Part shown: piece after piece, positions 1,229 to 34,900 of the stretch
Layout of the letters: every line of letters starts with the position of its first letter
Numbering within the stretch: position 1 is the first letter of the stretch
Source: an uncultured Candidatus Woesearchaeota archaeon
GTDB taxonomy: Archaea; Nanobdellota; Nanobdellia; Woesearchaeales; UBA10107
Direction of reading: 5' to 3'
DNA length: 64,000 bases
NCBI GenBank assembly: GCA_963835585.1
Contig: CAWIGF010000001.1
Coordinates: 226,281-290,280 of the forward strand
Notes under the pieces: model-generated
The model's database searches: none
Told to the model about the DNA's origin: nothing
The model's input: the letters and a program-made list of their open reading frames with translations, nothing else
Translations under genes and position numbers: made by a program

Positions 1229-1834
1229 GTGACGAAAGCTTTATATACACAACTTGCCCATTTAAAAACTATGACTGATAGTGTCCTGAGAGGTGTAATA
1301 GACTTCTTTAATAATTTAGGAATCTATGATGTTGTCCTCCCTTTTCTTCTCATATGGACCGTTGTATTTGCAATCCTAGAAAAGACAAAAATATTTGGAA
1401 CTGACAAAATAAATGGCCAGGAATATTCGAAAAAGAGCCTTAATGCAATGATTGCATTTGTCCTTGCACTGATATTTGTTGGTTCATCGCAATTGGTTGC
1501 TATAGCAAATCAAGCGCTTGCGAAAATAGTGCTTCTAATCTTAATCATCATCTGCTTCCTCATTTTGATTGGGACGTTTTTTGGAAAGGAGGAAGTAAAG
1601 TTAGACAAGGGACCATTACGAACTAGCGCAATAGTATTCATTGGAATTGGTGTTTTGCTCATCTTCGCATACCAAGTAGGCTGGTTGACTCCTTCTTGGA
1701 ATTACTTAGTTGACAATTGGAACGGGACGGTAGTCGGTGCGATTGGACTCATCCTTTTCATAATCATATTCATGGCGTTCATAACGAGCGAACCAAAAAA
1801 AAGTGAATCTGAACCAAAAAGAGAGGGAGGCTAA
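1229..1834 (+). CDS. multi-pass membrane protein, paralog family member A (IG-x-D-x-LPF-LI-x-V N-terminal motif)
   Basis: 201 aa with about 4 predicted TM helices. The N-terminal GVIDFFNNLGIYDVVLPFLLIWTVVFAILEKTKIF is shared with the next two genes and with 27549-28295. Confidence 0.55.
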   Translation: MTKALYTQLAHLKTMTDSVLRGVIDFFNNLGIYDVVLPFLLIWTVVFAILEKTKIFGTDKINGQEYSKKSLNAMIAFVLALIFVGSSQLVAIANQALAKIVLLILIIICFLILIGTFFGKEEVKLDKGPLRTSAIVFIGIGVLLIFAYQVGWLTPSWNYLVDNWNGTVVGAIGLILFIIIFMAFITSEPKKSESEPKREGG

Positions 1835-1837
1835 ACA

Positions 1838-2458
1838 ATGGCATTAGAAGATATATTCGTTTCATTGCAGAACATAGGAGTGGCTGATGTGTTTCTCCCA
1901 TTCATTCTCATATTCGCTGTAATCTTTGCGTTATTGCAGAAGATAAATATTTTTTCAGAGAAAGTAACTGTTAGTGGCAGAGAAGAAACAAGAGGAAATA
2001 GAAAAATAAATTCAGTCATTGCATTTGCAATCGCATTGGGAGCAATAATACCTCACGAACTCGGAACTTATCCAGCGGGAGCAGATGTCATCACAATCAT
2101 AAACAGCGCGCTTCCAAATGTTGCACTACTGGTTGTTGCAATAATAGCAATAGTGATATCTGTTGGATTCTTCGGTATAAATTGGGACACAGAAAAAGAA
2201 GGTTTGACTTTTGGCAAGGTTATTTCATATATCTTGGCAATAATAGCAGTAATAATTGTAATTGGTATTTTCTTGAATTCAATCGGCGCATGGAATTTCT
2301 CGGGATACCTTTACTTCATGACTGATCCTAATTTCCAGGCTACAGCACTGATTGTAATAGTTTTCATAGGAATTGTATGGATTATCGTGGGTGGCGGAGA
2401 TAAAGCTGGAACTCCCCCTCCAACGAACGCTGGAAATCCAGGGCAACCACCACACTGA
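1838..2458 (+). CDS. multi-pass membrane protein, paralog family member B
   Basis: 206 aa. LQNIGVADVFLPFILIFAVIFALLQKINIF matches the motif of its tandem neighbours. Gly/Pro-rich C-terminal tail. Confidence 0.55.
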   Translation: MALEDIFVSLQNIGVADVFLPFILIFAVIFALLQKINIFSEKVTVSGREETRGNRKINSVIAFAIALGAIIPHELGTYPAGADVITIINSALPNVALLVVAIIAIVISVGFFGINWDTEKEGLTFGKVISYILAIIAVIIVIGIFLNSIGAWNFSGYLYFMTDPNFQATALIVIVFIGIVWIIVGGGDKAGTPPPTNAGNPGQPPH

Positions 2459-2486
2459 TGAGAAAAACAATTAAATAGGGAGAAAA

Positions 2487-3029
2487 ATGGCAACATTCCT
2501 TGATGCGGGGTTGATAAGTCACTTCAACACACTGTTTGTTTTTATTTTTGTTGTTTTTGTAATGTATGGCATTCTTTCCATGACTCCTTTGTTCAAGAAC
2601 GCTTTCATTAACGCTGTGATTGCGACTATTTTAGGATTATTATCAGCTACATCAGGAACAGTCATCGCGGTATTTTCGTATGCTGCTCCATGGCTTGTGC
2701 TTTTATTCATTATCATAGTAGTGCTACAGCTCATCATGATGTTCCTGGTTCCAGGTGCTCCAACTATATTATCGACAAATCCAAGCGAAGAACCAACTTT
2801 CATTATTATCTTGATTCTTTTAATCTTGATAATATTCATATTCTCCATCGGACAAGTTTCAAACGAGAGTAATCAGACAACGACATCCACAACGGGACAA
2901 ATAGCCCAGCAAGGGACATCATTCGCAGGAAATGTCGGGCAAATAATCAGAGAACCTGCTGTGCTTGGATCACTTTTCGTGCTGTTAATGGCAGTATTTG
3001 CAGTACTTTTGTTGGCTCGTAAAGACTAG
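2487..3029 (+). CDS. multi-pass membrane protein, paralog family member C (diverged)
   Basis: 180 aa, hydrophobic, tandem with members A and B. Weaker N-terminal motif (ISHFNTLFVFIFVVFVMYGIL). Confidence 0.45.
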   Translation: MATFLDAGLISHFNTLFVFIFVVFVMYGILSMTPLFKNAFINAVIATILGLLSATSGTVIAVFSYAAPWLVLLFIIIVVLQLIMMFLVPGAPTILSTNPSEEPTFIIILILLILIIFIFSIGQVSNESNQTTTSTTGQIAQQGTSFAGNVGQIIREPAVLGSLFVLLMAVFAVLLLARKD

Positions 3030-3037
3030 CAAAGAAT

Positions 3038-3622
3038 TCACTTTCTTTTCATCGTTTCAGTAATGCGAGAAAGCTCGTTGACGTTTTCAACAAATCCAGG
3101 CAATATTCTTTTGAAGACTTGCTCCAAAGCCTTAATATCTGTAGACACTTCCCGCATGGTCGTGTCAGAATCGTTGATTCGTCCAAGTATGCTTTTTTGA
3201 AGAACATCAAAATCAGACTTGATTGATTTTATTTGGTCATCCATTGAAGTAAGCTTTGTATCAACTGATGACTTCCATTCAACTATTTTGTTTACATGCT
3301 CTATCAAATCACTCCATTTCTCCTCAATAATTGATTCTGCAATCTCTTCGATTCGGTCGGAAGAGACCGTATTATTTTGCACTTGTTGCGGCGCCATTGT
3401 GGGAGAAGGCATTTGATTGTCGTATGTATAAGACGAGGCTACTCCGTAATCAGCGGCCTGTTGGCCGTCATCAACAGCTGGTGTAATGTCCGCCTGAGAG
3501 ATGGCATCAAAGACCTGCGCGTTGCTATATCCTTGATACAAAAGTCTTTGTGCGATGTCGTCATTGGTTAAGTTCTGAGAACGCAATTGCAAGATTTGAT
3601 TTATGAGTGCTTGGTCAGCCAT
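3038..3622 (-). CDS. coiled-coil protein with N-terminal short helical (SHOCT/UBA-like) motif; possible pilus/archaellum accessory protein
   Basis: 194 aa. The N-terminal LINQILQLRSQNLTNDDIAQRLLYQGYSNAQVFDAI motif is followed by a Gln/Ala/Pro linker and a long heptad-like C-terminal segment. It lies divergent from the FlaI/FlaJ-like genes. Confidence 0.45.
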   Translation of the reverse strand: MADQALINQILQLRSQNLTNDDIAQRLLYQGYSNAQVFDAISQADITPAVDDGQQAADYGVASSYTYDNQMPSPTMAPQQVQNNTVSSDRIEEIAESIIEEKWSDLIEHVNKIVEWKSSVDTKLTSMDDQIKSIKSDFDVLQKSILGRINDSDTTMREVSTDIKALEQVFKRILPGFVENVNELSRITETMKRK

Positions 3623-3663
3623 TGCTTAAGAATAACAAAAAGGACTTTTTAAAGCTTTCTCAT

Positions 3664-4089
3664 TCATGCCTTTCGTTCAGAAAGCATTTTGTTGAGCTCT
3701 TCATGCGTCACAAAGCTAAGCGGCTCCCAATAACTTATGTATTTCTGCAAAACATTAACCTCTTCTTTCGTTGCAGATAATTTCAATTCCTTTACAAACA
3801 TCGTCATCTTCTCCTTAATGTCATTGATGTCTGTTTTCAAATCGAGAATCTCTGAATTGATCAGGCGAATATCGTCAATGATTTTCTTATCATTGGATAT
3901 CATGTTCTGCTCAGAAACTTGGACGGTTTTACGCAGAGTTGTGTAGCGGTCATCCAATGTCTTCAATGATCTGCTCACATTGCTGACTTGCGCGGCAACA
4001 TCAGAAACAATATTGGGGCTTACTTCCTCTTTACCTCCAAAAATATTTTTTTTCTGATCGACTTTTGGAGCTTGCGGTTGATCTGACAT
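3664..4089 (-). CDS. coiled-coil protein (FlaC/D/E-like accessory candidate)
   Basis: 141 aa, predominantly helical/heptad (LKTLDDRYTTLRKTVQVSEQNM...ILDLKTDINDIKEKM). It is co-oriented with 3038-3622 and upstream and divergent from the ATPase gene. Confidence 0.4.
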   Translation of the reverse strand: MSDQPQAPKVDQKKNIFGGKEEVSPNIVSDVAAQVSNVSRSLKTLDDRYTTLRKTVQVSEQNMISNDKKIIDDIRLINSEILDLKTDINDIKEKMTMFVKELKLSATKEEVNVLQKYISYWEPLSFVTHEELNKMLSERKA

Positions 4090-4201: not shown

Positions 4202-7200
4202 GTGGCGGACGAAAATCAATACGAAGTTTTACATGAAGGAGAGGAGACTATCCTCCGCATAAATGCGGAAAACTGGCTGACAGTCCCATCGCTGGAAGAT
4301 GATCCCATCACCATGTCTAGGACCATGGATATGCTTCTTGAGATTTCACAGGCAACGAGAATTATATTCACTCAGAAAAGAGATTATGAATATGATTTCC
4401 CCCAGACAAGGATGGTTGCCGAAATTGCATTATTGTACAACAAGCTCATTAAGGAAAAGGACATAATCAATTACGAGCAACTTGACGTAGAGCATGGAGA
4501 AATGTTTCTAGGAGCAAGCTACGTGAAACTAAGAACGTTGCTGTTTACCATGATGAAATCAGATCCTCTTGGATGTTACGTCGAACTAACACGTATGCTA
4601 AGGGAAGAGAGAACGAGTCTTGAAAAAGTCCAGGACATAAGAGCGGCACCGTATCAACAACGCCTAATCAGGGTTCTTGTGTACGCCATTAACCTCTTTG
4701 ACAAAACAAAAATGATAATTCTTGCAAAACCATATCTCCCGGGCTACAAAGTGGGAGACAGGGATGTTTACAAAAAACTATTTTCTCCGTTAATCAAGCC
4801 TGATTTCATGTATACGAAATTGATGGCATCTTATCCTATAGATGGTGAAGAGCTCGACAATTATTCAATGGGAAGCACAGAGGTAACCATATTCAAGACA
4901 CCAGATACGATACAATATCTATACCACATTAGTCCGCCTGAATTCAGGCTAAGCGAAGATAATTATGAATTGTTGGATCTGGCAAGAAGAATCATGGCCG
5001 AGCACCAGCCAGCAAAGGAAGAGTTCGCAGATCCAGAGCATATGAGAGAGGTGTTCTACAATGTTGGAAGGGATCTGCTCGAAGAGCTCGCAAATTATAG
5101 AAACTTACGACTAAGTGATGAAGAGCTTAATGAATTGACAGCTATTCTTGTGCGGTACACCATTGGATTCGGGCTGATAGAGGTGCTATTAAGTGATGAT
5201 AAAATACAAGATGTAACCATCAATAGCCCAATGGGACACGTTCCCATGTTTGTCGTTCATTCCGAATGGGGAGAATGCACCACCAATATAATTCCCACTC
5301 CAGCGGAAGCAGAGAGCTGGGCATCGAAGCTGCGATTAATGTCGGCAAGACCATTGGACGAAGCAAATCCAATCCTTGACACGGAAATTGAGTTCCCGGG
5401 AGCGAGAGCGAGAGTTGGTGTCATCGCACCGCCACTGGATCCATCTGGACTGGGTTATGCATTCAGACGACATAGAGATGAACCATGGACATTGCCCTTG
5501 TTCGTGAAAAACAAAATGATAAATCCGCTTGCCGCAGGACTTCTTAGTTTCATCATCGATGGAAACAGGACAATTCTTGTCGCAGGAACACGAAGTTCGG
5601 GTAAGACATCGTTGCTCGGCGCAATACTCACATCAATATTAAGGAGATTCAGAATAATTACAATAGAGGACAGTGTCACAGGAGATTCTGAGCTACTCAT
5701 TAAAAAAAACAATGAGTTTAGAAGAACAACGATTGGAAAATTGATTGATGAAGCATTCGAAAAATACAAAGGCACAATTGCCACCACAGGCTATGAAGTC
5801 CTGCCAAATATAGAAAATATCGAGGTTCTTGCGATGGATAAGAAAGGAAAGATATGCATTGCGAAGCCAAGCAAACTCATAAGACACAGGGTCTCGAAAC
5901 ATATATACAAAATCAAAACCAGGACTGGAAGAGCTATTAAAGTCACAGGAGATCACTCGCTCTTTTCGATAGGAAAAGATGCTTCAATAGAAGAAGTAAA
6001 AGTGCGTGAACTCGCTATTGGAGATAGAATTGCCATTCCACGAGTGTTACCAATGTTGAACAAAAAAAAGGAGAATATATCGCTGTTTGATAAAGTAGTG
6101 GAAAACAAAGATTCCTTCATTTCTGGAAAAACAACAACAAAAATATTGAACGACGATTTCGACAAGGTTCTTTCTATTGGACTTGCACAAGGCTATTCAA
6201 AGCAAACCGTACGAGGATGGAAAAGAAGAAATGTACTTCCCTCAAGAATAGTCAAAAAAATGATTGTAATGAAACACTCGCTTGATTTTAGGGGTGACTA
6301 TTTCAAATATGGGGAAAATTCCATCAAGAAACTGCCGCTGACGCTTTCATTGAGCCAAGAGCTGTTGACATTTTTCGGACTGTGGATTGCAGACGGTTGC
6401 TATGACAAAAATTCTGTGATCATATCGTGCAATGACCCAGAGGATAGAAGAGTTGTCTCCAATATCGCAAAAAAACTCGGATTGCACATCAAACTGCACT
6501 CAGACGGCATCTCATACATGATAAACTCCAAAACGCTGAAAATTGTGATGCAAGATATTTTGAGATTTACAGGAAATGCCTACACTAAAAGAGTTCCTGA
6601 GTGGATATTCGGGCTGAGCACGGAGCAGATTGCAGCGTTTCTAAAGGGCATATTTAGTGGGGATGGCTGTGCCACAGATAAGGAGATAATGATCAACCTC
6701 GCAGGCGAAGAGCTGCTAAAAGACATGCAAACACTCCTGTTACTATTTAAAATCATGTTGAGAACAGGAAAAAGGATCAAAAGAGATGGAACCATTCGTG
6801 CTGCAATTTCAGCGTTGGACTCATTGCAGAACTTCTCAGAACACATAGGATTTTTGCAACAATATAAAACAAAAAATCTCAGAAAATCTTGCAAGAGAAT
6901 TTCAACTCACGATACTACAGATACTTTCATCTTTAACGAGGATGTCAAAAACAAATTGTCAGAAATGTTCAAAGAACATTTTAGCAGAAGTGATTACATA
7001 ACAAAAGGCAATGCCATAGGAAGAAAAAAACTTTCCGTGCTGTTGCCGAAGAAATCAGGAAGCAGACTACTTGAAAACCTAACTATACTCGTTAATTCGG
7101 ATGTGATTTTCGATGAAATCATCGAAATTAAACGCCTTAAAAAATCGAATGAGTATGTATATGATTTTTCTGTTCCGGGATGCGAGAGTTTCATATGCGA

Positions 7201-8020
7201 AAATATTGTTGCACACAATACGCTCGAACTGCCTGGGAAAGCTATGAGGGACCTTGGCTATAACATACAGCAGATGAAAGTGGCATCTGCATTATCAAAA
7301 GGAAGCTCGGAAGTCTCTGCAGATGAAGGAATCAGAACAACATTGCGTCTTGGAGATTCCGCATTGTTTGTCGGCGAAATCCGTTCCTTAGAGGCAAAGG
7401 CGTTATACGAAGCCATGCGAGTCGGTGCATTGGCAAACGTCGTCGCAGGAACAATCCATGGCGACTCGCCATATGGTGTCTTTGATAGAGTCGTCAACGA
7501 TCTTGAAGTACCGCGGACAAGCTTCAAGGCAACAGACATAATCATCGTCGCAAATCCTATCCGTTCTCCTGATGGATTGCACAAGTGGAGACGGGTAACA
7601 TCAATAACAGAAGTGCGAAAATACTGGACTGATGATCCTGTTGCAGAGCACGGTTTTGCCGAGTTGATGAGATATGATGCCGAAACAGATCAGTTAGTTC
7701 CGACTGATATTTTGATTAATGGTGAGTCTGAAATTATAAAAGCCGTAGCAAGCAATGTGAAGGAGTGGGCAGGGAACTGGGATGCTGTATGGGAAAACAT
7801 TGAGTTGCGGGCTAAAATAAGTGAGGCAATTGTTAAATATGCACGGCAAACTAATGATCCGAACATTCTTGAGGCTGAGTTCTCAATTCTTGCAAACGAT
7901 GAGTTCCACAAGATATCAGAACAGGTGCGTGATGAATTGGGAGAACTTGACACAAAGCAGATATTCTTCAGATGGAATGAATGGATGAAAACAATGATAA
8001 AGAAAAGAGGAAAGGAATGA
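4202..8020 (+). CDS. FlaI/VirB11/GspE-family secretion ATPase (type IV pilus or archaellum assembly ATPase), intein-containing
   Basis: Walker A motif VAGTRSSGKTSLLGAIL. The IITIED / TLELPG split reconstitutes the family-specific IEDTxEL motif once 516 aa are removed. A GTG start is inferred at 4202. The mature extein is about 756 aa and includes a long N-terminal extension. Confidence 0.8.
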   Translation: MADENQYEVLHEGEETILRINAENWLTVPSLEDDPITMSRTMDMLLEISQATRIIFTQKRDYEYDFPQTRMVAEIALLYNKLIKEKDIINYEQLDVEHGEMFLGASYVKLRTLLFTMMKSDPLGCYVELTRMLREERTSLEKVQDIRAAPYQQRLIRVLVYAINLFDKTKMIILAKPYLPGYKVGDRDVYKKLFSPLIKPDFMYTKLMASYPIDGEELDNYSMGSTEVTIFKTPDTIQYLYHISPPEFRLSEDNYELLDLARRIMAEHQPAKEEFADPEHMREVFYNVGRDLLEELANYRNLRLSDEELNELTAILVRYTIGFGLIEVLLSDDKIQDVTINSPMGHVPMFVVHSEWGECTTNIIPTPAEAESWASKLRLMSARPLDEANPILDTEIEFPGARARVGVIAPPLDPSGLGYAFRRHRDEPWTLPLFVKNKMINPLAAGLLSFIIDGNRTILVAGTRSSGKTSLLGAILTSILRRFRIITIEDSVTGDSELLIKKNNEFRRTTIGKLIDEAFEKYKGTIATTGYEVLPNIENIEVLAMDKKGKICIAKPSKLIRHRVSKHIYKIKTRTGRAIKVTGDHSLFSIGKDASIEEVKVRELAIGDRIAIPRVLPMLNKKKENISLFDKVVENKDSFISGKTTTKILNDDFDKVLSIGLAQGYSKQTVRGWKRRNVLPSRIVKKMIVMKHSLDFRGDYFKYGENSIKKLPLTLSLSQELLTFFGLWIADGCYDKNSVIISCNDPEDRRVVSNIAKKLGLHIKLHSDGISYMINSKTLKIVMQDILRFTGNAYTKRVPEWIFGLSTEQIAAFLKGIFSGDGCATDKEIMINLAGEELLKDMQTLLLLFKIMLRTGKRIKRDGTIRAAISALDSLQNFSEHIGFLQQYKTKNLRKSCKRISTHDTTDTFIFNEDVKNKLSEMFKEHFSRSDYITKGNAIGRKKLSVLLPKKSGSRLLENLTILVNSDVIFDEIIEIKRLKKSNEYVYDFSVPGCESFICENIVAHNTLELPGKAMRDLGYNIQQMKVASALSKGSSEVSADEGIRTTLRLGDSALFVGEIRSLEAKALYEAMRVGALANVVAGTIHGDSPYGVFDRVVNDLEVPRTSFKATDIIIVANPIRSPDGLHKWRRVTSITEVRKYWTDDPVAEHGFAELMRYDAETDQLVPTDILINGESEIIKAVASNVKEWAGNWDAVWENIELRAKISEAIVKYARQTNDPNILEAEFSILANDEFHKISEQVRDELGELDTKQIFFRWNEWMKTMIKKRGKE
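5672..7219 (+). mobile_element. intein (516 aa) with LAGLIDADG homing endonuclease domain inserted in the ATPase P-loop/IEDTxEL region
   Basis: It begins SVTGDSELLI (Hint block A, Ser1) and ends IVAHN followed by T+1. Two LAGLIDADG-type motifs are present: LTFFGLWIADGCY and IAAFLKGIFSGDGCA. Confidence 0.8.
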
Positions 8021-10263
8021 CTGAGAACTCTCGAAAAGATGACATAAAGGGTTTAATCGAGAAATATACCAAAAAAGTAGAAGCACAATTGAAGGTTCCT
8101 CTTGGGAGCGTTTCTTCTGGACCAATAACTACCAAGGAATACCAGGAATTCAGAAAGCAATATCTTCCTGGAAACATGAGCTTATATGAGAAATCATGCA
8201 CCTTCTGCGAAAAAATAATCAAGGTAAACCCTGGTCCAAAGGACCTGCCCAAAATCGAGGCTGCACTTAAGATAACTGGGTTGAATATAACACCTGCTGG
8301 GGCGTATAGCTTTGCAATGCTTATTCCCACAGTGATAGCCCTCGTCGGATCATTGCTTAGCTACTCTCTTCCAATCTTAACAAATGCGCTTGGACTTACA
8401 AAGAACGCTGCGCCATCATTCTTCTTTGTATTTTTCTTCATATTCGTGGCTCTTGCATTGTACCTCCCGCTCCAGAAACTTCCAATGACATTTGCAGATT
8501 CTTGGAGACTTAAGGCAAGCAACCAAATGGTGCTCTCTGTTTTCTTCATGGTTACATACATGAGACATACATCGAATCTTGAACGTGCCATTGATTTTGC
8601 GGCGAACCACCTTTCCGCCCCATTATCTCTTGACTTGAAAAAGATTCTTTGGGATGTCCAGACTGATAAGTACGAAAGTGTAAAGGATGCACTTGATGCG
8701 TATCTTGATACATGGAAGGCATACAATCAGGAATTTGTGGAGGCTATGCACCTTATCGAATCATCATTACTCGAAGGTTCTGAAGATAGGCGTATTGAAT
8801 TACTGGAGAAATCATTGGAAGTTATTCTTGAAGAGACATACGAGAAAATGCTTCACTATGCGCAGAACCTCAAGTCGCCAATAGAGACACTTCATATGTT
8901 GGGAATTATTTTACCCATTCTTGGACTAGTCATACTTCCACTTATCGTAAGCTTCATTAGTTTCGTAAAATGGTACCATATTGCCGTTGTCTACAACGTA
9001 GTTCTTCCAATTCTTGTATATTATATGGGCACTAACATACTTTCCAAAAGGCCCACAGGATACGGAAGCGGCGATGCATCGGATACAAATCCCAACCTGA
9101 AAAAATACAAGAAAATAATCCTGAAAATTGCAAACCAGGAGATCTTGATAAGTCCTCTTGCGGTGAGCATTCTTGTTGGTTTTGTTTTTATCATGATTGG
9201 ATTAAGCCCATTGATCATTCATGCAATAAATCCCGGATTTGATGTTATATATGACGGAACGAGCGGTCAAATAGTTACAATCAATACCATAACATCCAAC
9301 TACACTGGAAATATAAAATTCGCGCTTCTAGGTTTCAAGCAAACTGTTGATTCGAACGGCAATCCTATCACACTTGGGCCATATGGACTTGGTGCTACAA
9401 TAATCAGTTTTTTAGTTCCACTAGGTCTTGCCCTAGCGATCGGACTCTATTTCAAATTTAGATCTGAAAATGTCCTGAAAATCAGGGAAAACACAAAAGC
9501 ACTTGAGGAAGAGTTCGCATCCGCTTTATTCCAATTGGGGAACAGGCTGGCGGACGGTCTGCCAGCGGAAATTGCATTTGACAGGGTTGCAAACACCATG
9601 GAAAATACTGTGTCTGGTTCTTTTTTCAAGGCAATATCCGCAAACATACGAAGGCTTGGAATGGGAATCGAGGAAGCAATTTTCAGCCCGAATAAAGGGG
9701 CATTGCTTGCGTTCCCATCAAACATAATCGAGAGTTCTATGAAGGTCATGGTAGAGTCTGCAAAGAAGGGACCAGCAATCGCGTCAAAAGCGGTATTGAG
9801 CGTCTCGAGCTACATCAAGGAAATCCATCGCGTAAATGAAAGGCTGAAGGACCTGATGGAAGACATAATATCCTCTATGAAGATGCAGATATCCGGAATG
9901 ACACCCGCCATCTCAGGAATTGTCATAGGAATCACATCCATGGTAAGCACGATTATAGAGCAATTACGAACGAGACTAAATGGTGCCACATCATCATCGG
10001 TAAGTATCGTTAATCTTTTCGGAGATCCAATCCCGACATTTTATTTCCAGCTTATCGTAGGTATCTATGTCGTCCAAATCATTTACATTATGACTGTGTT
10101 GTCAAATAAGATAGAGAACGGTGAGGATAAATTGAGTGAAGAATATCTGCTTGGAAAAAATCTAATAAAAAGCACAATAATATACATAATAGTTGCCCTA
10201 GCCATTACATTGGTATTCAATACAATCGCTGCTGCAATAATTCCAGCAGTTCCAACATCCTAA
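7981..10263 (+). CDS. FlaJ/TadC-like polytopic membrane protein (type II secretion system F-domain family)
   Basis: 760 aa. It overlaps the ATPase gene by 40 nt. Cytoplasmic helical domains alternate with TM blocks, the typical layout of FlaJ/TadC platform proteins. Immediate synteny with the ATPase gene. Confidence 0.6.
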   Translation: MDENNDKEKRKGMTENSRKDDIKGLIEKYTKKVEAQLKVPLGSVSSGPITTKEYQEFRKQYLPGNMSLYEKSCTFCEKIIKVNPGPKDLPKIEAALKITGLNITPAGAYSFAMLIPTVIALVGSLLSYSLPILTNALGLTKNAAPSFFFVFFFIFVALALYLPLQKLPMTFADSWRLKASNQMVLSVFFMVTYMRHTSNLERAIDFAANHLSAPLSLDLKKILWDVQTDKYESVKDALDAYLDTWKAYNQEFVEAMHLIESSLLEGSEDRRIELLEKSLEVILEETYEKMLHYAQNLKSPIETLHMLGIILPILGLVILPLIVSFISFVKWYHIAVVYNVVLPILVYYMGTNILSKRPTGYGSGDASDTNPNLKKYKKIILKIANQEILISPLAVSILVGFVFIMIGLSPLIIHAINPGFDVIYDGTSGQIVTINTITSNYTGNIKFALLGFKQTVDSNGNPITLGPYGLGATIISFLVPLGLALAIGLYFKFRSENVLKIRENTKALEEEFASALFQLGNRLADGLPAEIAFDRVANTMENTVSGSFFKAISANIRRLGMGIEEAIFSPNKGALLAFPSNIIESSMKVMVESAKKGPAIASKAVLSVSSYIKEIHRVNERLKDLMEDIISSMKMQISGMTPAISGIVIGITSMVSTIIEQLRTRLNGATSSSVSIVNLFGDPIPTFYFQLIVGIYVVQIIYIMTVLSNKIENGEDKLSEEYLLGKNLIKSTIIYIIVALAITLVFNTIAAAIIPAVPTS

Positions 10264-10284: not shown

Positions 10285-10374
10285 TGGGATAGGCCGGATT
10301 TGAACCAGCGACACCACGAGTTCTGCGATTTTATCACTTCAGTCGTGTGCTCTCCCAGGCTGAGCTACTATCCC
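10285..10374 (-). tRNA. tRNA-Phe (GAA) with 16-nt intron at canonical 37/38 position
   Basis: The minus-strand sequence GGGAUAG-UA-GCUC-AGCCUGGGA-GAGC-A-CACGA-CUGAAG-[UGAUAAAAUCGCAGAA]-C-UCGUG-GUGUC-GCUGG-UUCAAAU-CCGGC-CUAUCCC-A folds as a cloverleaf. The T-loop UUCAAAU is canonical. CCA is not encoded. Confidence 0.8.
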
Positions 10375-15124: not shown

Positions 15125-17491
15125 TTAGAAAAATCCATCCAATCCTTTTTGCGTATGCCCCTTCATAAGACTTTCAAAGGTCATTCCATAAAAGCTAAGC
15201 ACAGTGTCTGCCAGCGGTTCGATTTGTTTTTCTATGTAATAATCATAATTAATCTTTTTGCCTTCCATCATCTCAATAGGATATGGCTCGCCATCTTTTG
15301 CATCGCCTTCCTTGACCATGTAGTAATCTATAACGCTACTCGTTATCGCCTTAAGTTTTCGTGCCGCCTTGACATGTGGCGGAGTCGTTTTTGTGTACTC
15401 TATCAAATCCTTCCGTATAGATTTCCTGAGAACTAGCTTGCCATCCATCTTTCCTGCAAGGATATCCTTCACATAGTTCTTTATGAATTTTTTTACTTCA
15501 TCTTCTTTGCCGTGAAAGATCAAGTCAAGGAGTTTGTATTGAAATTCTTTTGCAGCCTCACACCAATCTCCTCTCACGAATTCCATTCCAGTTATATCTA
15601 TTTCTTCCTTTCCATTCTCGATCAGAAGACCGGCATACCTTTTTTTTGATCCGGTTTCGGTGCCCCGTGTTTTTGGCATCATGAATTTCTTGAAGACTTT
15701 GTCGAACTCGAGTTCAAGGTGCGAATCGCGCATATACGTTTCTTTGATGTAATTCTTCAGGAATGTGTTGACCTCATTGACAAGCTCATCTCCTATTTTT
15801 TCCGCCTGCTCAGAAGAGGAAGCATTGGTTTTTATGAACACGGAATCCGTATCACCATAAATGACATCATAGCCTTTCTCCCTTATTTTCTGGGCGCACA
15901 ACTTAATCATGCTCTGACAGGTATGTGTGATTGCATTTCCTATTTCCAACGAGTAATATCGCGATGAACGGTTTGCGATTGCCCCCCACAGCGAATTCAT
16001 CAACGTTTTCAATGCAAAGCTTGCCGTTTCATCTTTTCGGATTTTCGCCAAATCCCTCTGCTTCCATATCCTCTCGATGATTTGCGGCAGGAATCCGAAA
16101 TCATTTGTGAATACTGCACCATTCACGCATACAATATATTTTTTCTTGTCAACTCCTTTCGGGGGACTTTCGACATATGAATAAGGATCTATATTGAACG
16201 TCCTTATGACCGATGGATACAGGCTCTTGAAATCAAGGACAACAATGTTTTCATATATTCCTGGAACAGATTGCATCACAAATCCACCAGTAACCCGTTC
16301 CTCATCATCCTCTGATTTTTTTGCGATATAATTTGCGACAATATTTTTTTTCTTCAGCATTCGTAAATACAAAGAATCCAATGAAGCCACGGATGCAGAA
16401 ACCCTATCCAGGGACATTCCCGTCAGTGCAGAGCGCAGCATTGTCAGAGTTATCAACTGCTTTTTGTCTAAAATCTTGTAAACTAATTCAGAATCGAGAA
16501 GATTGTAATCAACGAGCTTCTGCTGATTGTGCTTGAACGCTTGCTCTATCTCCTCTCCTTTGTTTTCATGCCCGATTAGTTTCCTCTCTCCTAAAATAAC
16601 CTGTGCGGCCGTATCCAGCTTATAATCTGCAAGCCTGATGAACGATGACTTCAGGAGATGAATTCCATCTAAAACCTGCCTGCCCGGAAAATCAGCCTTC
16701 GAATCGATGAAGAACGAGCTTTCTATCCTCAGTTTGCACGGCCATTCCGTCCTTCCAAGGATAAATTGTATCTTGTTCCTTTCAAATGCTCTCTTCAGAT
16801 AATCCAGATCAAAATCGATGACGTTCCAGCCTACGATTATATCAGGGTCAAGTTCAATCACTTTTTTCTTGAACGCCTCGAGCAGCGACTTTTCGTCCGT
16901 AAATGAAACTGCATTCTCTAATTTTTTGTCGCCAATAATGAAGACTTTCTTGTATTTCTCAGAGAACATCGATACCGCATACAACTCTCCTTTCATTCCC
17001 GTTTCAATATCAATCGAGAGTATGCTTATTTTTGGAAGATCCTCTGTATTGATCGTTTCAATTCCTTTTAATCTAGGATTTTCATAAACTCGATTCACAA
17101 AATCTCCTCTTTTGTAATCCCCTTCTATGTCCATCAAGGCAGTTATCTCGTGATCAATAAGGAACCTGTTTATGAAGAGAACATCAGATTCAAATGTCTT
17201 TATGTGCTTGTTTTCCAGAATTTCCCGGTTGTCCTTAAGATTAGAAGGCGTTTTGAATGAAACTTTGGTTAGTTTTTCATTCTTGAAATTAACACAGGAT
17301 GTTTCTTCGAACTCTGCGTTGATAGCATCCGTTGCTCCTTTCTTGTCTGCCGTCTTTATGTAAAAATAAGGCTTGTATTCATTCATTGTGAGGAAGCTCT
17401 CACCGTTTTCCAGCCTGCCGAACAAATAAATCAAGGTACTGTCTTTTTGCTCGTCGATTCTGTACGTGGAATAAACAATGAACCCTTTCAT
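15125..17491 (-). CDS. polB: DNA polymerase, family B
   Basis: Exo I motif LSIDIET. Polymerase motif C DVIYGDTDSVFI. 788 aa with no intein. Confidence 0.9.
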   Translation of the reverse strand: MKGFIVYSTYRIDEQKDSTLIYLFGRLENGESFLTMNEYKPYFYIKTADKKGATDAINAEFEETSCVNFKNEKLTKVSFKTPSNLKDNREILENKHIKTFESDVLFINRFLIDHEITALMDIEGDYKRGDFVNRVYENPRLKGIETINTEDLPKISILSIDIETGMKGELYAVSMFSEKYKKVFIIGDKKLENAVSFTDEKSLLEAFKKKVIELDPDIIVGWNVIDFDLDYLKRAFERNKIQFILGRTEWPCKLRIESSFFIDSKADFPGRQVLDGIHLLKSSFIRLADYKLDTAAQVILGERKLIGHENKGEEIEQAFKHNQQKLVDYNLLDSELVYKILDKKQLITLTMLRSALTGMSLDRVSASVASLDSLYLRMLKKKNIVANYIAKKSEDDEERVTGGFVMQSVPGIYENIVVLDFKSLYPSVIRTFNIDPYSYVESPPKGVDKKKYIVCVNGAVFTNDFGFLPQIIERIWKQRDLAKIRKDETASFALKTLMNSLWGAIANRSSRYYSLEIGNAITHTCQSMIKLCAQKIREKGYDVIYGDTDSVFIKTNASSSEQAEKIGDELVNEVNTFLKNYIKETYMRDSHLELEFDKVFKKFMMPKTRGTETGSKKRYAGLLIENGKEEIDITGMEFVRGDWCEAAKEFQYKLLDLIFHGKEDEVKKFIKNYVKDILAGKMDGKLVLRKSIRKDLIEYTKTTPPHVKAARKLKAITSSVIDYYMVKEGDAKDGEPYPIEMMEGKKINYDYYIEKQIEPLADTVLSFYGMTFESLMKGHTQKGLDGFF

Positions 17492-30708: not shown

Positions 30709-31965
30709 TCAACTTACGTTGCTTGGCTGGTATTCTGGTTGCTGTGGAGGCATAGATGGAGATTTTGGAGGACCCCTTCTCAAATAGAAAATCAGGAATA
30801 TATTTACAATTACAAGAACTGCTACAGCAATTATCAACAAAGAGAGAGATGATCCAAATCCTTGATTTGTCCCAGTTACCGCATTACCATTTATGTTTCC
30901 TTTCGTGACGGAAAGCGTGTCAGGATTTACCTGCATTGAGAATGTATTCTCTGAAGCCTTTCCATTGTAGTTCAATGTCGCAAACAAATTATATGCGCCC
31001 GGTTGTAGATTTGTCGTATCCCAATATCCTGTCAGCGTCGCAGATGATAGTGAAGGAACATCAACTGGTAAAGTTTGGAAATTTCCATATACATTGCTTG
31101 CAGTATCCTTTACGACAATAGTTGCAGATACACTATCAATTTGATCTGACCAATGATTGTAGACATTGACGTCCATCCTGTTAATTCTGCCAAGTATAAA
31201 CTGCGGAGAGCTGATAGACTCGATTTCAATGAATTTACCTCCCACAGTAAAAGATGAATGAAGATCTATTGTTTTGTCCCCGTATATGATTGTCGTAAGG
31301 GCGACATACTCTCCTGGAGGAACTGACAAGAGTATCGATTTTGTTTCCTTTCTCTCTATGCCCGGACCTAAAGGATCATAATCAGTATGATAAGTTGCTA
31401 TTGTATCTCCGTTTTGATTGATAATCTGAACATCCGCGGAAGGCGTTACCGTCTCCGATCCTTCATTCGTGAAAGCGTACGTGAGCTCAAGGTCATTCGT
31501 TTCCGGATCATTTGTAGTAAATGTAGCAGTCATGTACTGTCCAGGGATAGGCACATTGATTACTAATTGATGAACAATGGCCACCTCCCCAAATATAGTA
31601 GTCCCTTGAGGCTGAACAGAGGAAGAAGATTGCGCCGTGACTATTTCAACAGTATTTGCGCCAGGCTGCAACACAGCAAAGGGAATGTCAACTGAATACG
31701 AAATCGTTGCCTGGTCGTCAGTTGGACTAAGATGGATTGAACTGTTCGACAGATTTACATAACTTTGCCATTCCCCTCTTACATATATCGTCAAGTCAAG
31801 ATCTTGGTGTTCCGTGTTCATTATTGTAAAACTATAATCGTGTTTGAAGTCAGCAGTAGTATCTGCGACTATTTTTGCCGGCGTAACACCGAATGCATGC
31901 GCTGAGACAAGCGAACTAAGTAAAAATAACACCCACACAAAAATAAATCCAGTTCGCTTCATCAT
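30709..31965 (-). CDS. cell-surface protein with signal peptide and C-terminal TM anchor; paralog of 28478-29449
   Basis: Signal peptide MMKRTGFIFVWVLFLLSSLVSAHA. The C-terminal GFGSSLSLLIIAVAVLVIVNIFLIFYLRRGPP is followed by a Pro/Gln tail. The start overlaps the stop of the upstream giant-gene segment by 4 nt. Confidence 0.65.
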   Translation of the reverse strand: MMKRTGFIFVWVLFLLSSLVSAHAFGVTPAKIVADTTADFKHDYSFTIMNTEHQDLDLTIYVRGEWQSYVNLSNSSIHLSPTDDQATISYSVDIPFAVLQPGANTVEIVTAQSSSSVQPQGTTIFGEVAIVHQLVINVPIPGQYMTATFTTNDPETNDLELTYAFTNEGSETVTPSADVQIINQNGDTIATYHTDYDPLGPGIERKETKSILLSVPPGEYVALTTIIYGDKTIDLHSSFTVGGKFIEIESISSPQFILGRINRMDVNVYNHWSDQIDSVSATIVVKDTASNVYGNFQTLPVDVPSLSSATLTGYWDTTNLQPGAYNLFATLNYNGKASENTFSMQVNPDTLSVTKGNINGNAVTGTNQGFGSSLSLLIIAVAVLVIVNIFLIFYLRRGPPKSPSMPPQQPEYQPSNVS

Positions 31966-34900
31966 GATTCGACTCCATACACAGTTATTGTTGATACCTT
32001 CAGGCCAGGAGGTTCACCATTTGGAACAGTCACATTGAGATCAATTGCTGCAGTATTGTTGTAAGGAGGGAAATTAAGATAAGCAATGACAGACTTTGGA
32101 GTTGATGTCATAGGCGTCCAAGTCATATTTGAATACGTTGTATTAAATGCGTTAAACGTATTACTTGAATTAGTTGTATTGGCTTTGAACATGAATGTTG
32201 TGTTCCCTAATCCTGAAAGGTTAAACAATGTTGTCGCATTGATTGATACATTCACGAGCACGTTCGAAAGGCTTTGAACTATGAACGGAGGTGGATTGTT
32301 GTTTACTGTTGTGTTGGTTTGTCCAGGAATCATGTTTCCGAAATTAGAGAAGTTCTGCGTCAGGTTTATGTTGACATTTACTTGTATTGAGAAGTTGAAT
32401 GTTGATGAGAATGAGCTGTTCAATGTTCCATCGTTTGCCTCAACGTTCCAGAAATATACTCCACACTTATCATTCGTTGACAGAACAGGAGTTGTGTAAT
32501 TTGTCGCGCTCACTCCTGTGAAGAACTGATTTGCACAGAACTGGCTAGTTAGATTGATGTTGTAAGTCAACGTATCACCGTCAGCGTCAGATGATGCATT
32601 CCACAATAATAAAGGCTGAATTGCAGTTAGCGAACTATTGCCATTGCTTGGAAGGACCAACACTGGAGCAGTAGGTGCTGAGTTAAGAACAACCAAATTA
32701 TTAGAGCAAACAGTTGATCCGTCCTGTGTTCCGTCGTTCGGTGTTATGCATGCAGTCCAATTTTGACCTTTTTTCAACATAGACGAGTCCATGATGTATG
32801 ATTGGTTGTTGTAGATGTTCAGGATTTCCTGTGCAGACAATGTACGATTGAAAATCATTACGTTGTCTATTGAGCCGTTGAAATACGTTGGAAGCTGTGA
32901 AGCTATTCCGATTGTGAAATCTCCTGCATATCCTTGCGTGTTTCCCGCCGACATAGAACTCGAGGTTCTTTGTGATCCATCAACCCATATTTGCGCAGTC
33001 CCGTTTGTATTCCAAGTTCCGACTAAAAAGTGCCACTTACTGTCGTTGTAAGCATCTGTTGAGTCAGTTATTCCTCCTTGCGGGTAAAGATACATAGTTA
33101 TATGTCCGGCTTGTATATACAATTCCTTGTCGTGCGTTCCTCCAGTTGGGAGACCATTGGTAAATCCTAATATACTTCCTGAGTTACTTGTTTTAAACCA
33201 CGCCACGAGTGAAAGATTGTATACTACCTCACTCGCAGTTGTGTTTGACCATATGTAACTATTATTTCCATTAAACTGATAATCTCCGAATCCGTTGTAT
33301 CCACCTGTTGAATTCCATGTTGCATTGATTACAGTTCCATTATTTCCATAAGTTGAGTAATCCCTTGTCCATGTCGAGTTGGAGCCACCTTCGAATGGCA
33401 TGTTCAAGACAGCTATTGAAGTTCCATTCAATTTCCAGTCAGTGATGTTGATGACCGTATAACCACCTGGGCTTGTTGAGTTCCAAGATAGAGTTAGATT
33501 TTCAGAGGAGGTATTTGTTCCAAACGTCGAGTTCAAAAGGACATTTCCAACAATGAAGGGAAGCTGACGCGTCGCGTTCACGAAGAATGTGAAAGTCTTG
33601 TTGTTTGCAGGATTGGATCCATTTACAACGACCGAGACTGTGTATTGGCTACCTGTGCTGAATAATTGGCTGAACATGCTTGTGAATCCTGATGTCAACG
33701 TCTGTACAAATGTCAGGATATTGTTGATGAACCAGTTGAACGTGAGCGCTTCTGGATATAATTCAGTTGCGGTTATGTTGAATGTCAAATTGGTTGACGC
33801 TGAAATATTCGTACTTATCGAAACATTGATCTGATTCGTGATGTTCTGCAATCCTCCTGTCGCGTTAGGATAGAATGACGTCAGACTGATGTTGTTCAGG
33901 ACAAGCAAGGAATTGGAGCAGACAGTACTTCCATCTTGCGTTCCATCATTTGGAGTTATGCAGGATGTCCAGTTCTGGTTTGGTTGAAGCATGGATGAGT
34001 CCATAATATATGATTGGTTTTGATATATGTCTTTAATTTCTTGAGGAGATAATGTGCGATTGAAAATCAGAACATTGTCTATTGAGCCGTTGAAGTATAC
34101 ACCATCACCTCTCTTTCCTATATATGCAATTGACATAGAACTCGTTGAAGTCGCATTAGCAACTAAAACACCATTGACATATAGCAGCTGGGTTGTGGCA
34201 TTCTGCACAGCAGCAAGATAAGTCCAAACTCCCGGCGTTGCTGCATACGCACCATTAGCAGCAGAATCAAATTGCCAAGCCCCACTACCACCCTCCTGAA
34301 GCCAAGAGTTTGTTGCGGTTCCATTATTTATTATAGCTGCACCCACTACTATGCTTGTCGGTTTCGCCCATACACTAAGGGTATACACGCTAATAGCGGA
34401 AGGCAAGCTTGCATTCACAAAGCTGCTGATGCCGTTGAATTGATAATCTCCGAATCCGTTATACCCGTCAGTCGAATTCCACGTCGCATTCATAACAGTC
34501 CCATTATTGCCGTATGTGGAATAGTCTCTTGTCCATGTGGAGTTAGAGCCGCCTTCGAAGGGCATGTTCAAGACAGCAATCGAGGTTCCACTTATTCTCC
34601 AGTCAGTTATGTTGATTAAATTAGATGTATATGATGTTGAGTTCCAAGATACAGTAAGATTGTCAGTAGTGAGGTTATTTCCCGATGTAGAATTCAACAA
34701 CACTACGCTGTTCACAATAAATGGAGGTTGTGATGTCAGATTCAAATAGAAACTGAATGTCTGGTTGTTCGCTGAATTGCTTCCATTGACTGTCACCGAG
34801 ACATTATATAATCCAGATGTGCTGAAAAGCTGGCTGAACATGGATGTGAACCCAGATGTCAGTGTCTGCACAAATTTCAGGACATTATTTATGAACCAGC

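What the first reader, a model, noticed from the sequence alone, without database searches (positions are those of the whole stretch)
4202..8020. LAGLIDADG intein splitting the conserved IEDT/PEL motif of the pilus/archaellum ATPase
The FlaI/VirB11-family ATPase ORF is 1272 aa. Residues encoded at 5672-7219 form a 516-aa intein. It has an N-terminal SVTGDSELLI, two LAGLIDADG motifs and a C-terminal VAHN followed by Thr+1. Excising it rejoins IITIED to TLELPG, giving the family's catalytic IEDTxEL box. Inteins are known in archaeal replication proteins but less commonly reported in secretion ATPases. The insertion into the most conserved motif is typical of homing endonuclease targeting. The mature ATPase, at about 756 aa, also has an unusually long N-terminal extension.
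Basis: partly seen in the sequence, partly recalled or inferred. Interest (0 to 1): 0.5.

Follow-up and report, generated by a model that had tools for sequence, protein, structure and literature searches.

The report
Homing-endonuclease intein in pilus-type ATPase
A pilus-motor ATPase gene of a Woesearchaeota-type (DPANN) archaeon carries a textbook self-splicing, mobile protein insert (an intein with a homing endonuclease) in its magnesium-binding motif; it is real and well preserved, but it is an ordinary member of a known kind of element.

Summary
ORF 4202-8020 (+) encodes a 1272-aa precursor. Nucleotides 5672-7219 encode a 516-aa insert with Ser1, block B TxxH, two LAGLIDADG motifs, block F Asp, a C-terminal His-Asn and Thr+1. 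Fifteen intein-free orthologs of 754-757 aa, one of them in a fully syntenic locus, lack exactly this segment. The spliced DNA aligns without gaps to them. The AlphaFold model of the insert (pLDDT 95.6) matches PI-PkoII, PI-PfuI and PI-SceI. The spliced extein matches A. fulgidus GspE and FlaI. The insertion lies between D490 and T491 of the Asp box (IIT-IED|TLEL). All 105 inteins at this site among the top 120 homologs keep the splicing residues, and 101-105 keep the endonuclease Asp/Asp/Lys. Presence is patchy among close relatives, and intein and extein similarities disagree, which indicates mobility.

It is not new as a kind. Archaeal VirB11/FlaI-type ATPases are published intein hosts (21 inteins in Novikova 2016, plus the classic KlbA inteins). 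The same Asp-box site is occupied in Aenigmarchaeota and Nanohaloarchaea ATPases. JGI already annotates such proteins as ATPase/intein/homing endonuclease. The intein is not allelic with KlbA, which differs in site, in Ala1 and in Cys+1. Verdict: genuine, canonical, low novelty.

The parts
4202..8020 (+). Precursor gene: T4P/FlaI-GspE2-type ATPase interrupted by one intein (1272 aa, GTG start, TGA stop at 8018-8020)
   Evidence: identical protein P0001 is in public data on a 339,840-nt contig
4202..5671 (+). N-extein, aa 1-490. It holds a family-specific N-terminal extension of about 190 aa, the GspE/FlaI-like N-domain, and the start of the RecA-like ATPase core.
5582..5611 (+). Walker A (AGTRSSGKTS). 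The GK|T bond (nt 5605/5606) is a second intein site that is empty here but occupied in homolog P0119.
5651..5671 (+). N-terminal half of the Asp box (RIITIED), at the end of the predicted core beta-strand 484-489
   Evidence: E489 and D490 are invariant in the family
5672..7219 (+). Intein, 516 aa (precursor aa 491-1006): HINT splicing domain split by a LAGLIDADG homing endonuclease plus accessory helical regions
   Evidence: absent from 15 orthologs
5672..5710 (+). Intein block A (SVTGDSELLIKKN). Ser1 is the nucleophile and is present in 105/105 homologs.
5927..5965 (+). Intein block B (GRAIKVTGDHSLF). T92 and H95 of the TxxH motif are invariant in 105/105.
6362..6406 (+). LAGLIDADG motif 1 (block C; LLTFFGLWIADGCYD). 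Catalytic Asp241 is kept in 101/105.
6578..6598 (+). Endonuclease block D (AYTKRVP). Lys306 is invariant in 105/105.
6629..6673 (+). LAGLIDADG motif 2 (block E; IAAFLKGIFSGDGCA). Catalytic Asp331 is kept in 104/105.
7154..7192 (+). Intein block F (YVYDFSVPGCESF). Asp498 is invariant.
7199..7219 (+). Intein block G (ENIVAHN). His515-Asn516 are invariant in 105/105.
7220..8017 (+). C-extein, aa 1007-1272, starting with Thr+1. It holds the rest of the ATPase core and a helical C-terminal extension.
7220..7237 (+). C-terminal half of the Asp box (TLELPG). Thr+1 is invariant in the family with or without the intein.
7358..7396 (+). Atypical Walker B plus catalytic Glu (SALFVGEIRSLEA). The S|L bond (nt 7387/7388) is a third intein site that is empty here but occupied in 10 homologs, where the +1 residue is Thr instead of Leu/Val.
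7445..7468 (+). His box (AGTIHGDS). The KlbA-type intein site of the homologous Methanocaldococcus ATPases maps just upstream of it and is empty here.
8017..10263 (+). Downstream polytopic membrane protein, a putative platform partner. The longest ORF starts at 7981, but the ATG at 8017 overlaps the ATPase stop codon as ATGA. The gene is syntenic in all relatives examined.
   Evidence: no Pfam or NCBIfam hit

Best explanation
Nucleotides 5672-7219 encode a standard (class 1) intein that carries a double-motif LAGLIDADG homing endonuclease. It is inserted in frame between Asp490 and Thr491 of the Asp box of a FlaI/GspE2-clade type-IV-pilus-like assembly ATPase. The organism is probably a Woesearchaeota-type (DPANN) archaeon. 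That placement is inferred only from the names carried by homologous proteins; the exact public copy of this protein is unnamed and no taxonomic marker was examined.

Shown: (1) the insert has all intein blocks and the fold of known intein endonucleases; (2) orthologs in the same genomic context lack exactly this segment; (3) the joined exteins form a complete ATPase.

Inferred mechanism: the gene is translated as a 1272-aa precursor in which the Mg2+-binding Asp box is split, so the precursor is presumably inactive. Ser1 undergoes an N-O acyl shift, assisted by block B Thr92/His95. Thr+1 attacks the resulting ester. Asn516, helped by His515, cyclises to release the 516-aa intein. An O-N shift then seals IITIED-TLELPG to give the 756-aa ATPase.

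The freed intein (or the precursor) acts as a site-specific endonuclease on intein-less alleles at the IED|T coding sequence. Repair of the break copies the intein in (homing). This explains its position in an invariant motif and its patchy, incongruent distribution.
For: - Anatomy: Ser1, TGDH, two LAGLIDADG motifs, block F Asp, His-Asn and Thr+1 are all present. Pfam gives Intein_splicing 7.8e-25 and LAGLIDADG_3 3e-15. Sequence hits include the PI-PkoII, TFIIB, CDC21, VMA and DnaB inteins.
- Fold: the AF2 model has pLDDT 95.6. The top Foldseek hits are PI-PkoII (E 2e-30, TM 0.73/0.70), the TliVMA intein, PI-PfuI, PI-SceI and I-DmoI.
- Exact boundaries: 15 intein-free orthologs lack S491-N1006 precisely. 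Locus L014 is gene-for-gene syntenic with an empty site. The spliced extein DNA aligns without gaps over about 2270 nt at 74% identity to the two intein-free genes.
- Host: the spliced protein aligns across the junction with afGspE, CpaF and FlaI. Its model matches 2oap (TMt 0.80) and FlaI.
- Selection: in 105 allelic inteins that are 36-62% identical to this one, S1, T92, H95, D498, H515, N516 and T+1 are kept in 105/105, D241 in 101, D331 in 104 and K306 in 105. No mini-inteins occur (501-524 aa among the 77 measured).
- Mobility: within the roughly 80%-identity extein clade only 2 of 17 sequence clusters carry the intein, and those two are not sisters. P0002 (with intein) and P0079 (without) have exteins 95.8% identical in syntenic loci. 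Intein and extein identities are incongruent; for P0051/P0062 the exteins are 57.5% identical and the inteins 81.5%.
- The Asp-box Glu coordinates Mg2+ (PMC5424180).
Against: - No experiment shows splicing or DNA cleavage. Both are inferred from conserved residues.
- The nearest intein found is only 62% identical to this copy, so there is no sign of a very recent transfer of this particular element.
- The patchy pattern could also arise from precise losses.
- The homolog sample was ranked by full-length score, so it over-represents intein-containing alleles outside the closest clade.
- The trees were simple NJ and identity comparisons, not reconciliations.
- Intein GC (0.379) is close to the window mean (0.396), so composition gives no independent signal of foreign origin.
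Confidence: 0.9

Rival explanations
1. The intein splices, but its endonuclease is no longer active. The element would be a vertically inherited passenger, kept only because imprecise deletion would destroy the Asp box, and the patchy pattern would reflect rare precise losses.
For: The nearest relative of this copy is only 62% identical, against 81% for the exteins. No target-site or cleavage data exist. The intein-positive members of the close clade could be relics.
Against: Both catalytic Asp residues and the block D Lys are kept in 101-105 of 105 alleles, and no mini-inteins were seen. Decaying endonucleases normally lose these residues and shrink. Intein and extein identities are incongruent, for example 81.5% against 57.5%. 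The two intein-positive members of the close clade are not sisters.
Confidence: 0.15
2. The intein has been co-opted as a conditional switch. Splicing would respond to redox, temperature, metal or ATP/Mg2+ and so gate assembly of the pilus-type motor after translation.
For: The insertion splits the Mg2+-binding motif, so the precursor should be inactive. Regulatory splicing has been proposed for other inteins (abstracts of PMC11409957 and PMC6195587). Cys residues lie next to functional motifs: Cys243, Cys333, and Cys504 in block F, which is Cys in 40/105.
Against: There is no specific evidence. The nucleophiles are Ser and Thr, which are not redox-sensitive. Cys504 is poorly conserved. Most close relatives function without the intein, so it is dispensable.
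Confidence: 0.07
3. The 516-aa insert is a conserved, non-intein accessory domain of the ATPase (the refutation case proposed by the first reader), or an assembly or fusion artefact.
For: None was found. Only the fact that 105 of the top 120 hits contain it could suggest a fixed domain.
Against: Intein-free orthologs exist in syntenic loci. All Hint blocks and the intein fold are present. The same protein is found in three independent sources (NCBI, Logan, ENA), and its close homolog P0002 is carried on at least 24 contigs.
Confidence: 0.01

Closest known systems
Allelic Asp-box inteins of other DPANN FlaI/GspE-type ATPases (Woesearchaeota, Aenigmarchaeota, Nanohaloarchaea). They are annotated by JGI as 'type IV secretory pathway ATPase VirB11/archaellum biosynthesis ATPase/intein/homing endonuclease'. 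They may also be among the 21 archaeal 'VirB11/COG0630' inteins of Novikova et al. 2016, but that could not be checked because the paper's supplementary tables are not held.
   Same: They share the insertion point (I/V)ED|S...HN|T(x)E(L/I), Ser1/Thr+1, a length of about 500-520 aa and two LAGLIDADG motifs. Identity to this intein is 30-62% (PMC4760082).
   Different: This is a distinct sequence: its nearest relative is 62% identical. It sits in a sub-clade of the 756-aa Woesearchaeal ATPase family that is otherwise mostly intein-free.
KlbA inteins (Methanocaldococcus jannaschii MJ0781, PDB 2jmz/2jnq, and orthologs): the class 2 inteins
   Same: The host is a homologous PilT/VirB11-superfamily ATPase, 26% identical to this extein. 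The insertion lies in a nucleotide-binding-site motif. The organisms are archaeal.
   Different: The site differs: TGH(D/R)G|C-SGTLHA just before the His box, about 75 residues downstream, while the KlbA host keeps an intact RIITIEDTPEL. KlbA inteins have Ala1 and Cys+1 (class 2 mechanism), against Ser1/Thr+1 here. Mja KlbA is a 168-aa mini-intein. Intein identity is about 28% over the splicing domain only.
PI-PkoII (Thermococcus kodakarensis Pol-2 intein, PDB 2cw7), PI-PfuI (1dq3) and the TliVMA/PhoVMA inteins (7qss, 7qst)
   Same: These are the best structural and sequence matches. They share the architecture of a HINT domain, a double-LAGLIDADG endonuclease and extra helical regions (E 2e-30, TM 0.73).
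   Different: The host proteins differ (DNA polymerase, RNR, V-ATPase). Identity is only 15-20%, so these are homologs of the element, not alleles.
Archaeal secretion/assembly ATPases afGspE (2oap) and FlaI (4ii7/4ihq); bacterial CpaF/TadA
   Same: The spliced extein shares the Walker A, Asp box, atypical Walker B with Glu, His box and overall fold.
   Different: The family here has about 190 extra N-terminal residues and a longer helical C-terminus. It scores far below the FlaI equivalog cutoff (109 against 550 bits), and no archaellum genes lie nearby.

Membership tests
Class 1 (standard) intein / HINT domain | [quoted passage not shown] | tested here: met
   Ser491 of the precursor is intein Ser1; Ser is present in 105/105 allelic inteins
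Class 1 (standard) intein / HINT domain | Block B TxxH motif | tested here: met
   T92-G-D-H95, with T and H invariant in 105/105
Class 1 (standard) intein / HINT domain | Blocks F and G: conserved Asp in F, C-terminal His-Asn, and Ser/Thr/Cys at +1 | tested here: met
   D498, H515, N516 and Thr+1 are each present in 105/105
Class 1 (standard) intein / HINT domain | In-frame insertion that is absent from orthologs, with exteins forming a contiguous host protein | tested here: met
   15 intein-free orthologs; syntenic empty site in L014; gapless alignment of the spliced DNA
Class 1 (standard) intein / HINT domain | HINT fold | tested here: met
   AF2 model with pLDDT 95.6; Foldseek hits to full-length inteins and mini-inteins (5o9i, 4e2u, 6rpp)
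Class 1 (standard) intein / HINT domain | Autocatalytic protein splicing | not testable with these tools
   Needs expression and SDS-PAGE or mass spectrometry
Intein-borne LAGLIDADG homing endonuclease (PI-SceI / PI-PfuI / PI-PkoII type) | Two LAGLIDADG motifs, each ending in a catalytic acidic residue | tested here: met
   GLWIAD241G and GIFSGD331G; D241 kept in 101/105 and D331 in 104/105; Pfam LAGLIDADG_3 with 2 stretches
Intein-borne LAGLIDADG homing endonuclease (PI-SceI / PI-PfuI / PI-PkoII type) | Pseudo-dimeric alpha-beta-beta-alpha-beta-beta-alpha endonuclease fold | tested here: met
   The model's secondary structure over residues 229-380 and Foldseek hits to I-DmoI, I-Tsp061I, PI-PfuI and PI-SceI
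Intein-borne LAGLIDADG homing endonuclease (PI-SceI / PI-PfuI / PI-PkoII type) | Cleaves the intein-less allele and homes | not testable with these tools
   Only indirect support: patchy distribution and intein/extein incongruence
KlbA (class 2) inteins | Ala1 with Cys+1 (direct attack on the N-terminal amide) | tested here: not met
   Ser1/Thr+1 here, against Ala1/Cys+1 in the Methanocaldococcus, Methanothermococcus and Micrarchaeota loci
KlbA (class 2) inteins | Insertion at TGHxG|C(S)GTLHA, before the His box | tested here: not met
   That site is uninterrupted here (VGALANVVAGTIHG), and the KlbA host has an intact IEDTPEL
PilT/VirB11-like secretion ATPase (FlaI/GspE2 clade) - the host protein | Walker A, Asp box, atypical Walker B followed by a catalytic Glu, and His box | tested here: met
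   GTRSSGKT, IIT-IED|TLEL, FVGEIRSLE and GTIHG are present, and the key residues are invariant in the family; motif roles from PMC5424180
PilT/VirB11-like secretion ATPase (FlaI/GspE2 clade) - the host protein | Two-domain fold of archaeal GspE/FlaI | tested here: met
   The spliced model matches 2oap (TMt 0.80) and 4ihq (TMt 0.75)
PilT/VirB11-like secretion ATPase (FlaI/GspE2 clade) - the host protein | Adjacent polytopic platform protein (FlaJ/TadC/PilC type) | tested here: inconclusive
   A translationally coupled polytopic membrane protein of 748-760 aa is adjacent and syntenic, but it has no Pfam or NCBIfam match
Archaellum motor ATPase FlaI (equivalog) | Score above the NCBIfam NF058587 cutoff, with fla-operon context (FlaH, FlaJ, archaellins) | tested here: not met
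   109 bits against a cutoff of 550; the neighbours are small membrane and coiled-coil proteins with no FlaH or archaellin hits

The most novel reading that the evidence does not exclude
The DPANN pilus-type ATPase family would be an intein hotspot, with independent endonuclease-bearing inteins in each nucleotide-binding motif: Walker A, Asp box and Walker B here, and the His-box region in KlbA relatives. The intact endonucleases, together with intein-plus and intein-minus alleles at 96% extein identity and strong intein/extein incongruence, would then record ongoing homing. That would imply frequent DNA exchange between Woesearchaeota lineages, possibly through the very pilus apparatus the intein sits in, or use of splicing as a post-translational gate on pilus assembly.
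Probability: 0.12. Interest if true: 0.55.

Novelty: new member of a known kind. Interest (0 to 1): 0.2.

Why it matters
For annotation, the gene should be described as a 756-aa T4P-type ATPase plus a 516-aa intein. The labels '1272-aa TadA' and, in one homolog record, 'DNA polymerase' are misleading.

Biologically it adds one well-preserved example to the known bias of inteins toward ATP-binding motifs. The family offers natural intein-plus and intein-minus pairs in syntenic loci, and up to two inteins per protein among the homologs sampled here. That makes it usable for studying homing dynamics in uncultivated DPANN archaea.

The intein uses Ser1/Thr+1, is mesophile-derived judging by its GC content and metagenomic sources, and has a high-confidence model. 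It could be a candidate for protein-engineering toolkits. None of this changes current understanding of inteins or of pilus ATPases.

Tried and rejected
- **KlbA allele hypothesis.** I tested whether this is an allele of the classic KlbA intein. The recalled Mja KlbA sequence matched PDB 2jmz at 100%. A genome scan did not return M. jannaschii itself, but it returned congeners and Micrarchaeota. These show the KlbA site before the His box with Ala1/Cys+1. Rejected.
- **Papers not held.** The Johnson 2007 KlbA NMR paper could not be read by DOI or by a guessed PMC id. The supplementary tables of Novikova 2016, which might list the VirB11 insertion sites, are not held.
- **Literature searches.** Searches combining intein with FlaI, PilB, TadA, GspE, archaellum, Woesearchaeota or DPANN found no paper that specifically describes this site.
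- **Junction calling.** A regular expression missed 28 of the 105 inteins, so I replaced it with pairwise alignment to an intein-free reference. The first MAFFT --auto run timed out.
- **Composition.** The intein (GC 0.379) is near the window mean (0.396) and the exteins are GC-richer, so base composition does not mark the intein as foreign.
- **Co-conversion.** No co-conversion tract was seen around the junction between P0002 and P0079.
- **Other features.** tblastn with inteins from all four sites found no second intein in the window. The minus-strand ORFs inside the intein region (5455-5787, 5693-5956, 6580-6894) were not examined, because the plus-strand reading accounts for the region. 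Rfam found nothing relevant.

Full report
**Observation**

The window has a single long ORF at 4202..8020 on the + strand. It starts with GTG and encodes 1272 aa. SVTGDSELLI begins at residue 491 (nt 5672). VAHN ends at residue 1006 (nt 7219) and is followed by Thr.

Pfam finds three families on the precursor, all above their gathering scores:
- Intein_splicing, 7.8e-25
- LAGLIDADG_3, 3e-15, in two stretches
- T2SSE, 2e-10, in two stretches that flank the insert

NCBIfam adds intein_Nterm. It also matches the whole insert to the intein portions of intein-containing RpoA'', DnaB, Tes, RFC and PolII models.

**What the insert is**

By sequence, the insert matches solved inteins: PI-PkoII, the TFIIB mini-inteins, and the CDC21, VMA, DnaB and RadA inteins.

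An AlphaFold2 model built on 93 aligned sequences (this intein plus 92 homologs) has mean pLDDT 95.6. Foldseek against the PDB returns, in order:
- PI-PkoII (E 2e-30, TM 0.73/0.70)
- the endonuclease-bearing TliVMA and PhoVMA inteins
- PI-PfuI
- PI-SceI
- mini-inteins, matching the splicing domain
- I-DmoI and I-Tsp061I, matching the endonuclease core

The canonical residues are all present:
- Ser1 (block A)
- Thr92-x-x-His95 (block B)
- GLWIAD241G and GIFSGD331G (the two LAGLIDADG motifs)
- Lys306 (block D)
- Asp498 (block F)
- His515-Asn516 (block G)
- Thr+1

**Exact boundaries and host**

The protein search returned relatives named as Woesearchaeota or Nanoarchaeota ATPases. Pairwise alignment of the top 120 to an intein-free member gave the following:

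| Class | Count |
|---|---|
| Insert of at least 100 aa exactly after reference residue 490 | 105 |
| No insert (754-757 aa, 79-83% identical to the window's exteins) | 15 |
| Second intein in Walker B (GEVRS\|TEA), among the 105 | 10 |
| Second intein in Walker A (GK\|T), among the 105 | 1 |

The intein-free proteins read (I/V)ITIEDTLELP across the site.

P0061 lies in a locus (L014) that matches the window gene for gene. The shared order is Translin, three small membrane proteins, two coiled-coil proteins, the ATPase, a large membrane protein, an OB-fold protein and a class II aaRS. The ATPase site there is empty. At the DNA level the window's spliced exteins align end to end, without a gap, to both intein-free genes at about 74% identity.

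The spliced protein aligns through the junction to A. fulgidus GspE, CpaF and FlaI. Its model (pLDDT 82.4) matches 2oap (TMt 0.80) and FlaI. The junction D490|T491 lies at the end of core strand 484-489, inside the Asp box. The conserved Glu of that box coordinates Mg2+ in this ATPase superfamily (PMC5424180).

**Mechanism**

The following steps are inferred from established intein chemistry. The precursor has a split Asp box and should be inactive. Ser1 makes the N-O shift. Thr+1 transesterifies. Asn516 cyclises. The product is the 756-aa ATPase plus a free 516-aa endonuclease.

Purifying selection supports the view that both activities are maintained. Across 105 allelic inteins that are only 36-62% identical to this one, every splicing residue is invariant. 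The endonuclease Asp/Asp/Lys are kept in 101, 104 and 105 of them. None has shrunk to a mini-intein.

**Mobility**

In the roughly 80%-identity extein clade that contains the window's protein, only two of 17 sequence clusters carry the intein. These are this protein and P0002. On an NJ tree each is nested among intein-free relatives.

P0002 and the intein-free P0079 have exteins 95.8% identical (86% at the nucleotide level) in syntenic loci.

Intein and extein similarities correlate only weakly (r = 0.53), and some pairs are striking. P0051 and P0062 have exteins 57.5% identical and inteins 81.5% identical. This is the pattern expected of homing, though precise losses could contribute. This copy's nearest relative is only 62% identical, so there is no evidence of a very recent transfer of this particular element.

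**Comparison with what is known**

Inteins in archaeal ATPases of this superfamily are established. Novikova et al. 2016 count 21 in VirB11/COG0630 and 5 in CpaF/COG4962 (PMC4760082). The KlbA inteins define splicing class 2 (PMC2807308).

I tested whether this intein is a KlbA allele. In Methanocaldococcus, Methanothermococcus and Micrarchaeota loci the KlbA intein sits at TGH(D/R)G|C-SGTLHA with Ala1/Cys+1. The host's own RIITIEDTPEL is intact, and the intein lies about 75 residues downstream of it. The two are therefore different sites and different mechanistic classes.

A profile-free search of 1.8 billion representatives with the intein alone shows that the same IED|S…HN|T(x)E site is occupied in many other archaeal FlaI/GspE-like ATPases (exteins …SIED|…|TRELQLPHENW…). 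Members of Aenigmarchaeota and Nanohaloarchaea are among them, and JGI already names several 'ATPase VirB11/archaellum…/intein/homing endonuclease'.

The inteins at the three sites within the Woesearchaeal family share only 25-28% identity, so they are independent lineages.

The host is not an archaellum FlaI. It scores 109 bits against a cutoff of 550, and there is no fla-gene context.

**Verdict**

It is a canonical class 1 intein with a LAGLIDADG homing endonuclease, at a recurrent insertion site, in a protein family that is a published intein host. It is a new member of a known kind and of low general interest.

The mildly interesting aspects are:
- inteins cluster in the nucleotide-binding motifs of this ATPase superfamily: three sites in the Woesearchaeal family, plus the KlbA site in homologous ATPases of other archaea;
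- natural intein-plus and intein-minus syntenic pairs are available in DPANN archaea;
- the ATPase has conserved extensions of unknown function at both ends.

Noticed in passing
window 5605/5606 and 7387/7388 (empty sites); homologs P0119, P0012, P0028, P0034, P0045, P0053, P0065, P0066, P0107, P0108, P0115: The same ATPase family has two further intein insertion sites. One is in Walker A (GK|T; Cys1/Thr+1; 535 aa in P0119). The other is in Walker B (GEVRS|TEA; Ser1/Thr+1; 500-510 aa in 10 homologs). These give proteins of about 1780-1820 aa with two inteins. At the Walker B site the +1 residue is Thr when the site is occupied and Leu or Val when it is empty, as in the window. The inteins of the three sites are only 25-28% identical to one another.
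   Followed up: partly
window 4202-4770 (aa 1 to about 190) and 7778-8017 (about the last 80 aa): The mature ATPase has about 190 extra N-terminal residues and a longer helical C-terminus than afGspE or FlaI. Both are conserved across the family (invariant Y64, Q68, D121, P122, R187, Y190) and are modelled with pLDDT of about 80-95. No Pfam family matches them and their function is unknown.
   Followed up: partly
window 7981-10263 (+): The downstream polytopic membrane protein has no Pfam or NCBIfam match. An ATG at 8017 overlaps the ATPase stop codon (ATGA) and follows a purine-rich run, which suggests translational coupling and a 748-aa product rather than the 760-aa longest ORF. It is probably a very divergent FlaJ/TadC-type platform protein.
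   Followed up: partly
window 1229-4089; L014, L017, L019: A conserved cassette lies upstream of the ATPase: three small polytopic membrane proteins (201, 206 and 180 aa, + strand) and two coiled-coil proteins (194 and 141 aa, - strand). None has a significant family hit. The cassette is syntenic in all relatives examined, so these may be unrecognised components of the pilus-like system.
   Followed up: no
window 15125-17491 (-): The family B DNA polymerase gene (788 aa), a classic archaeal intein host, carries no intein here. tblastn with inteins from four sites found no other intein in the 64 kb.
   Followed up: partly
window 37127-48634 (-) and 31962-35291 (-): A giant 3835-aa ORF has at least seven Laminin_G_3 (ConA-like lectin) repeats plus a weak (below-cutoff) PKD-domain hit. 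A second Laminin_G_3 protein of 1109 aa lies nearby. Both look like large surface or adhesion proteins of the kind reported in DPANN genomes.
   Followed up: no
window 56865-56949 (-) and 10285-10374 (-): Rfam finds a tRNA at 56865-56949 (52.5 bits) that ARAGORN does not report. ARAGORN calls the tRNA at 10285-10374 'Ser' with an unusual ACT anticodon at position 32. Either gene may have an atypical structure or an intron.
   Followed up: no
L007-L010 (Micrarchaeota) and L005 (Methanothermococcus sp. Ax23): Inteins at the KlbA site that begin with Ala also occur as long, LAGLIDADG-containing versions (ORFs of 956-1148 aa). They are found in Micrarchaeota and in one Methanothermococcus, so they are not limited to the 168-aa mini form of M. 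jannaschii.
   Followed up: no
homolog P0021: One intein-containing homolog of this ATPase is named 'DNA polymerase [uncultured archaeon]' in NCBI. This is probably a misannotation carried over from similarity between inteins.
   Followed up: no
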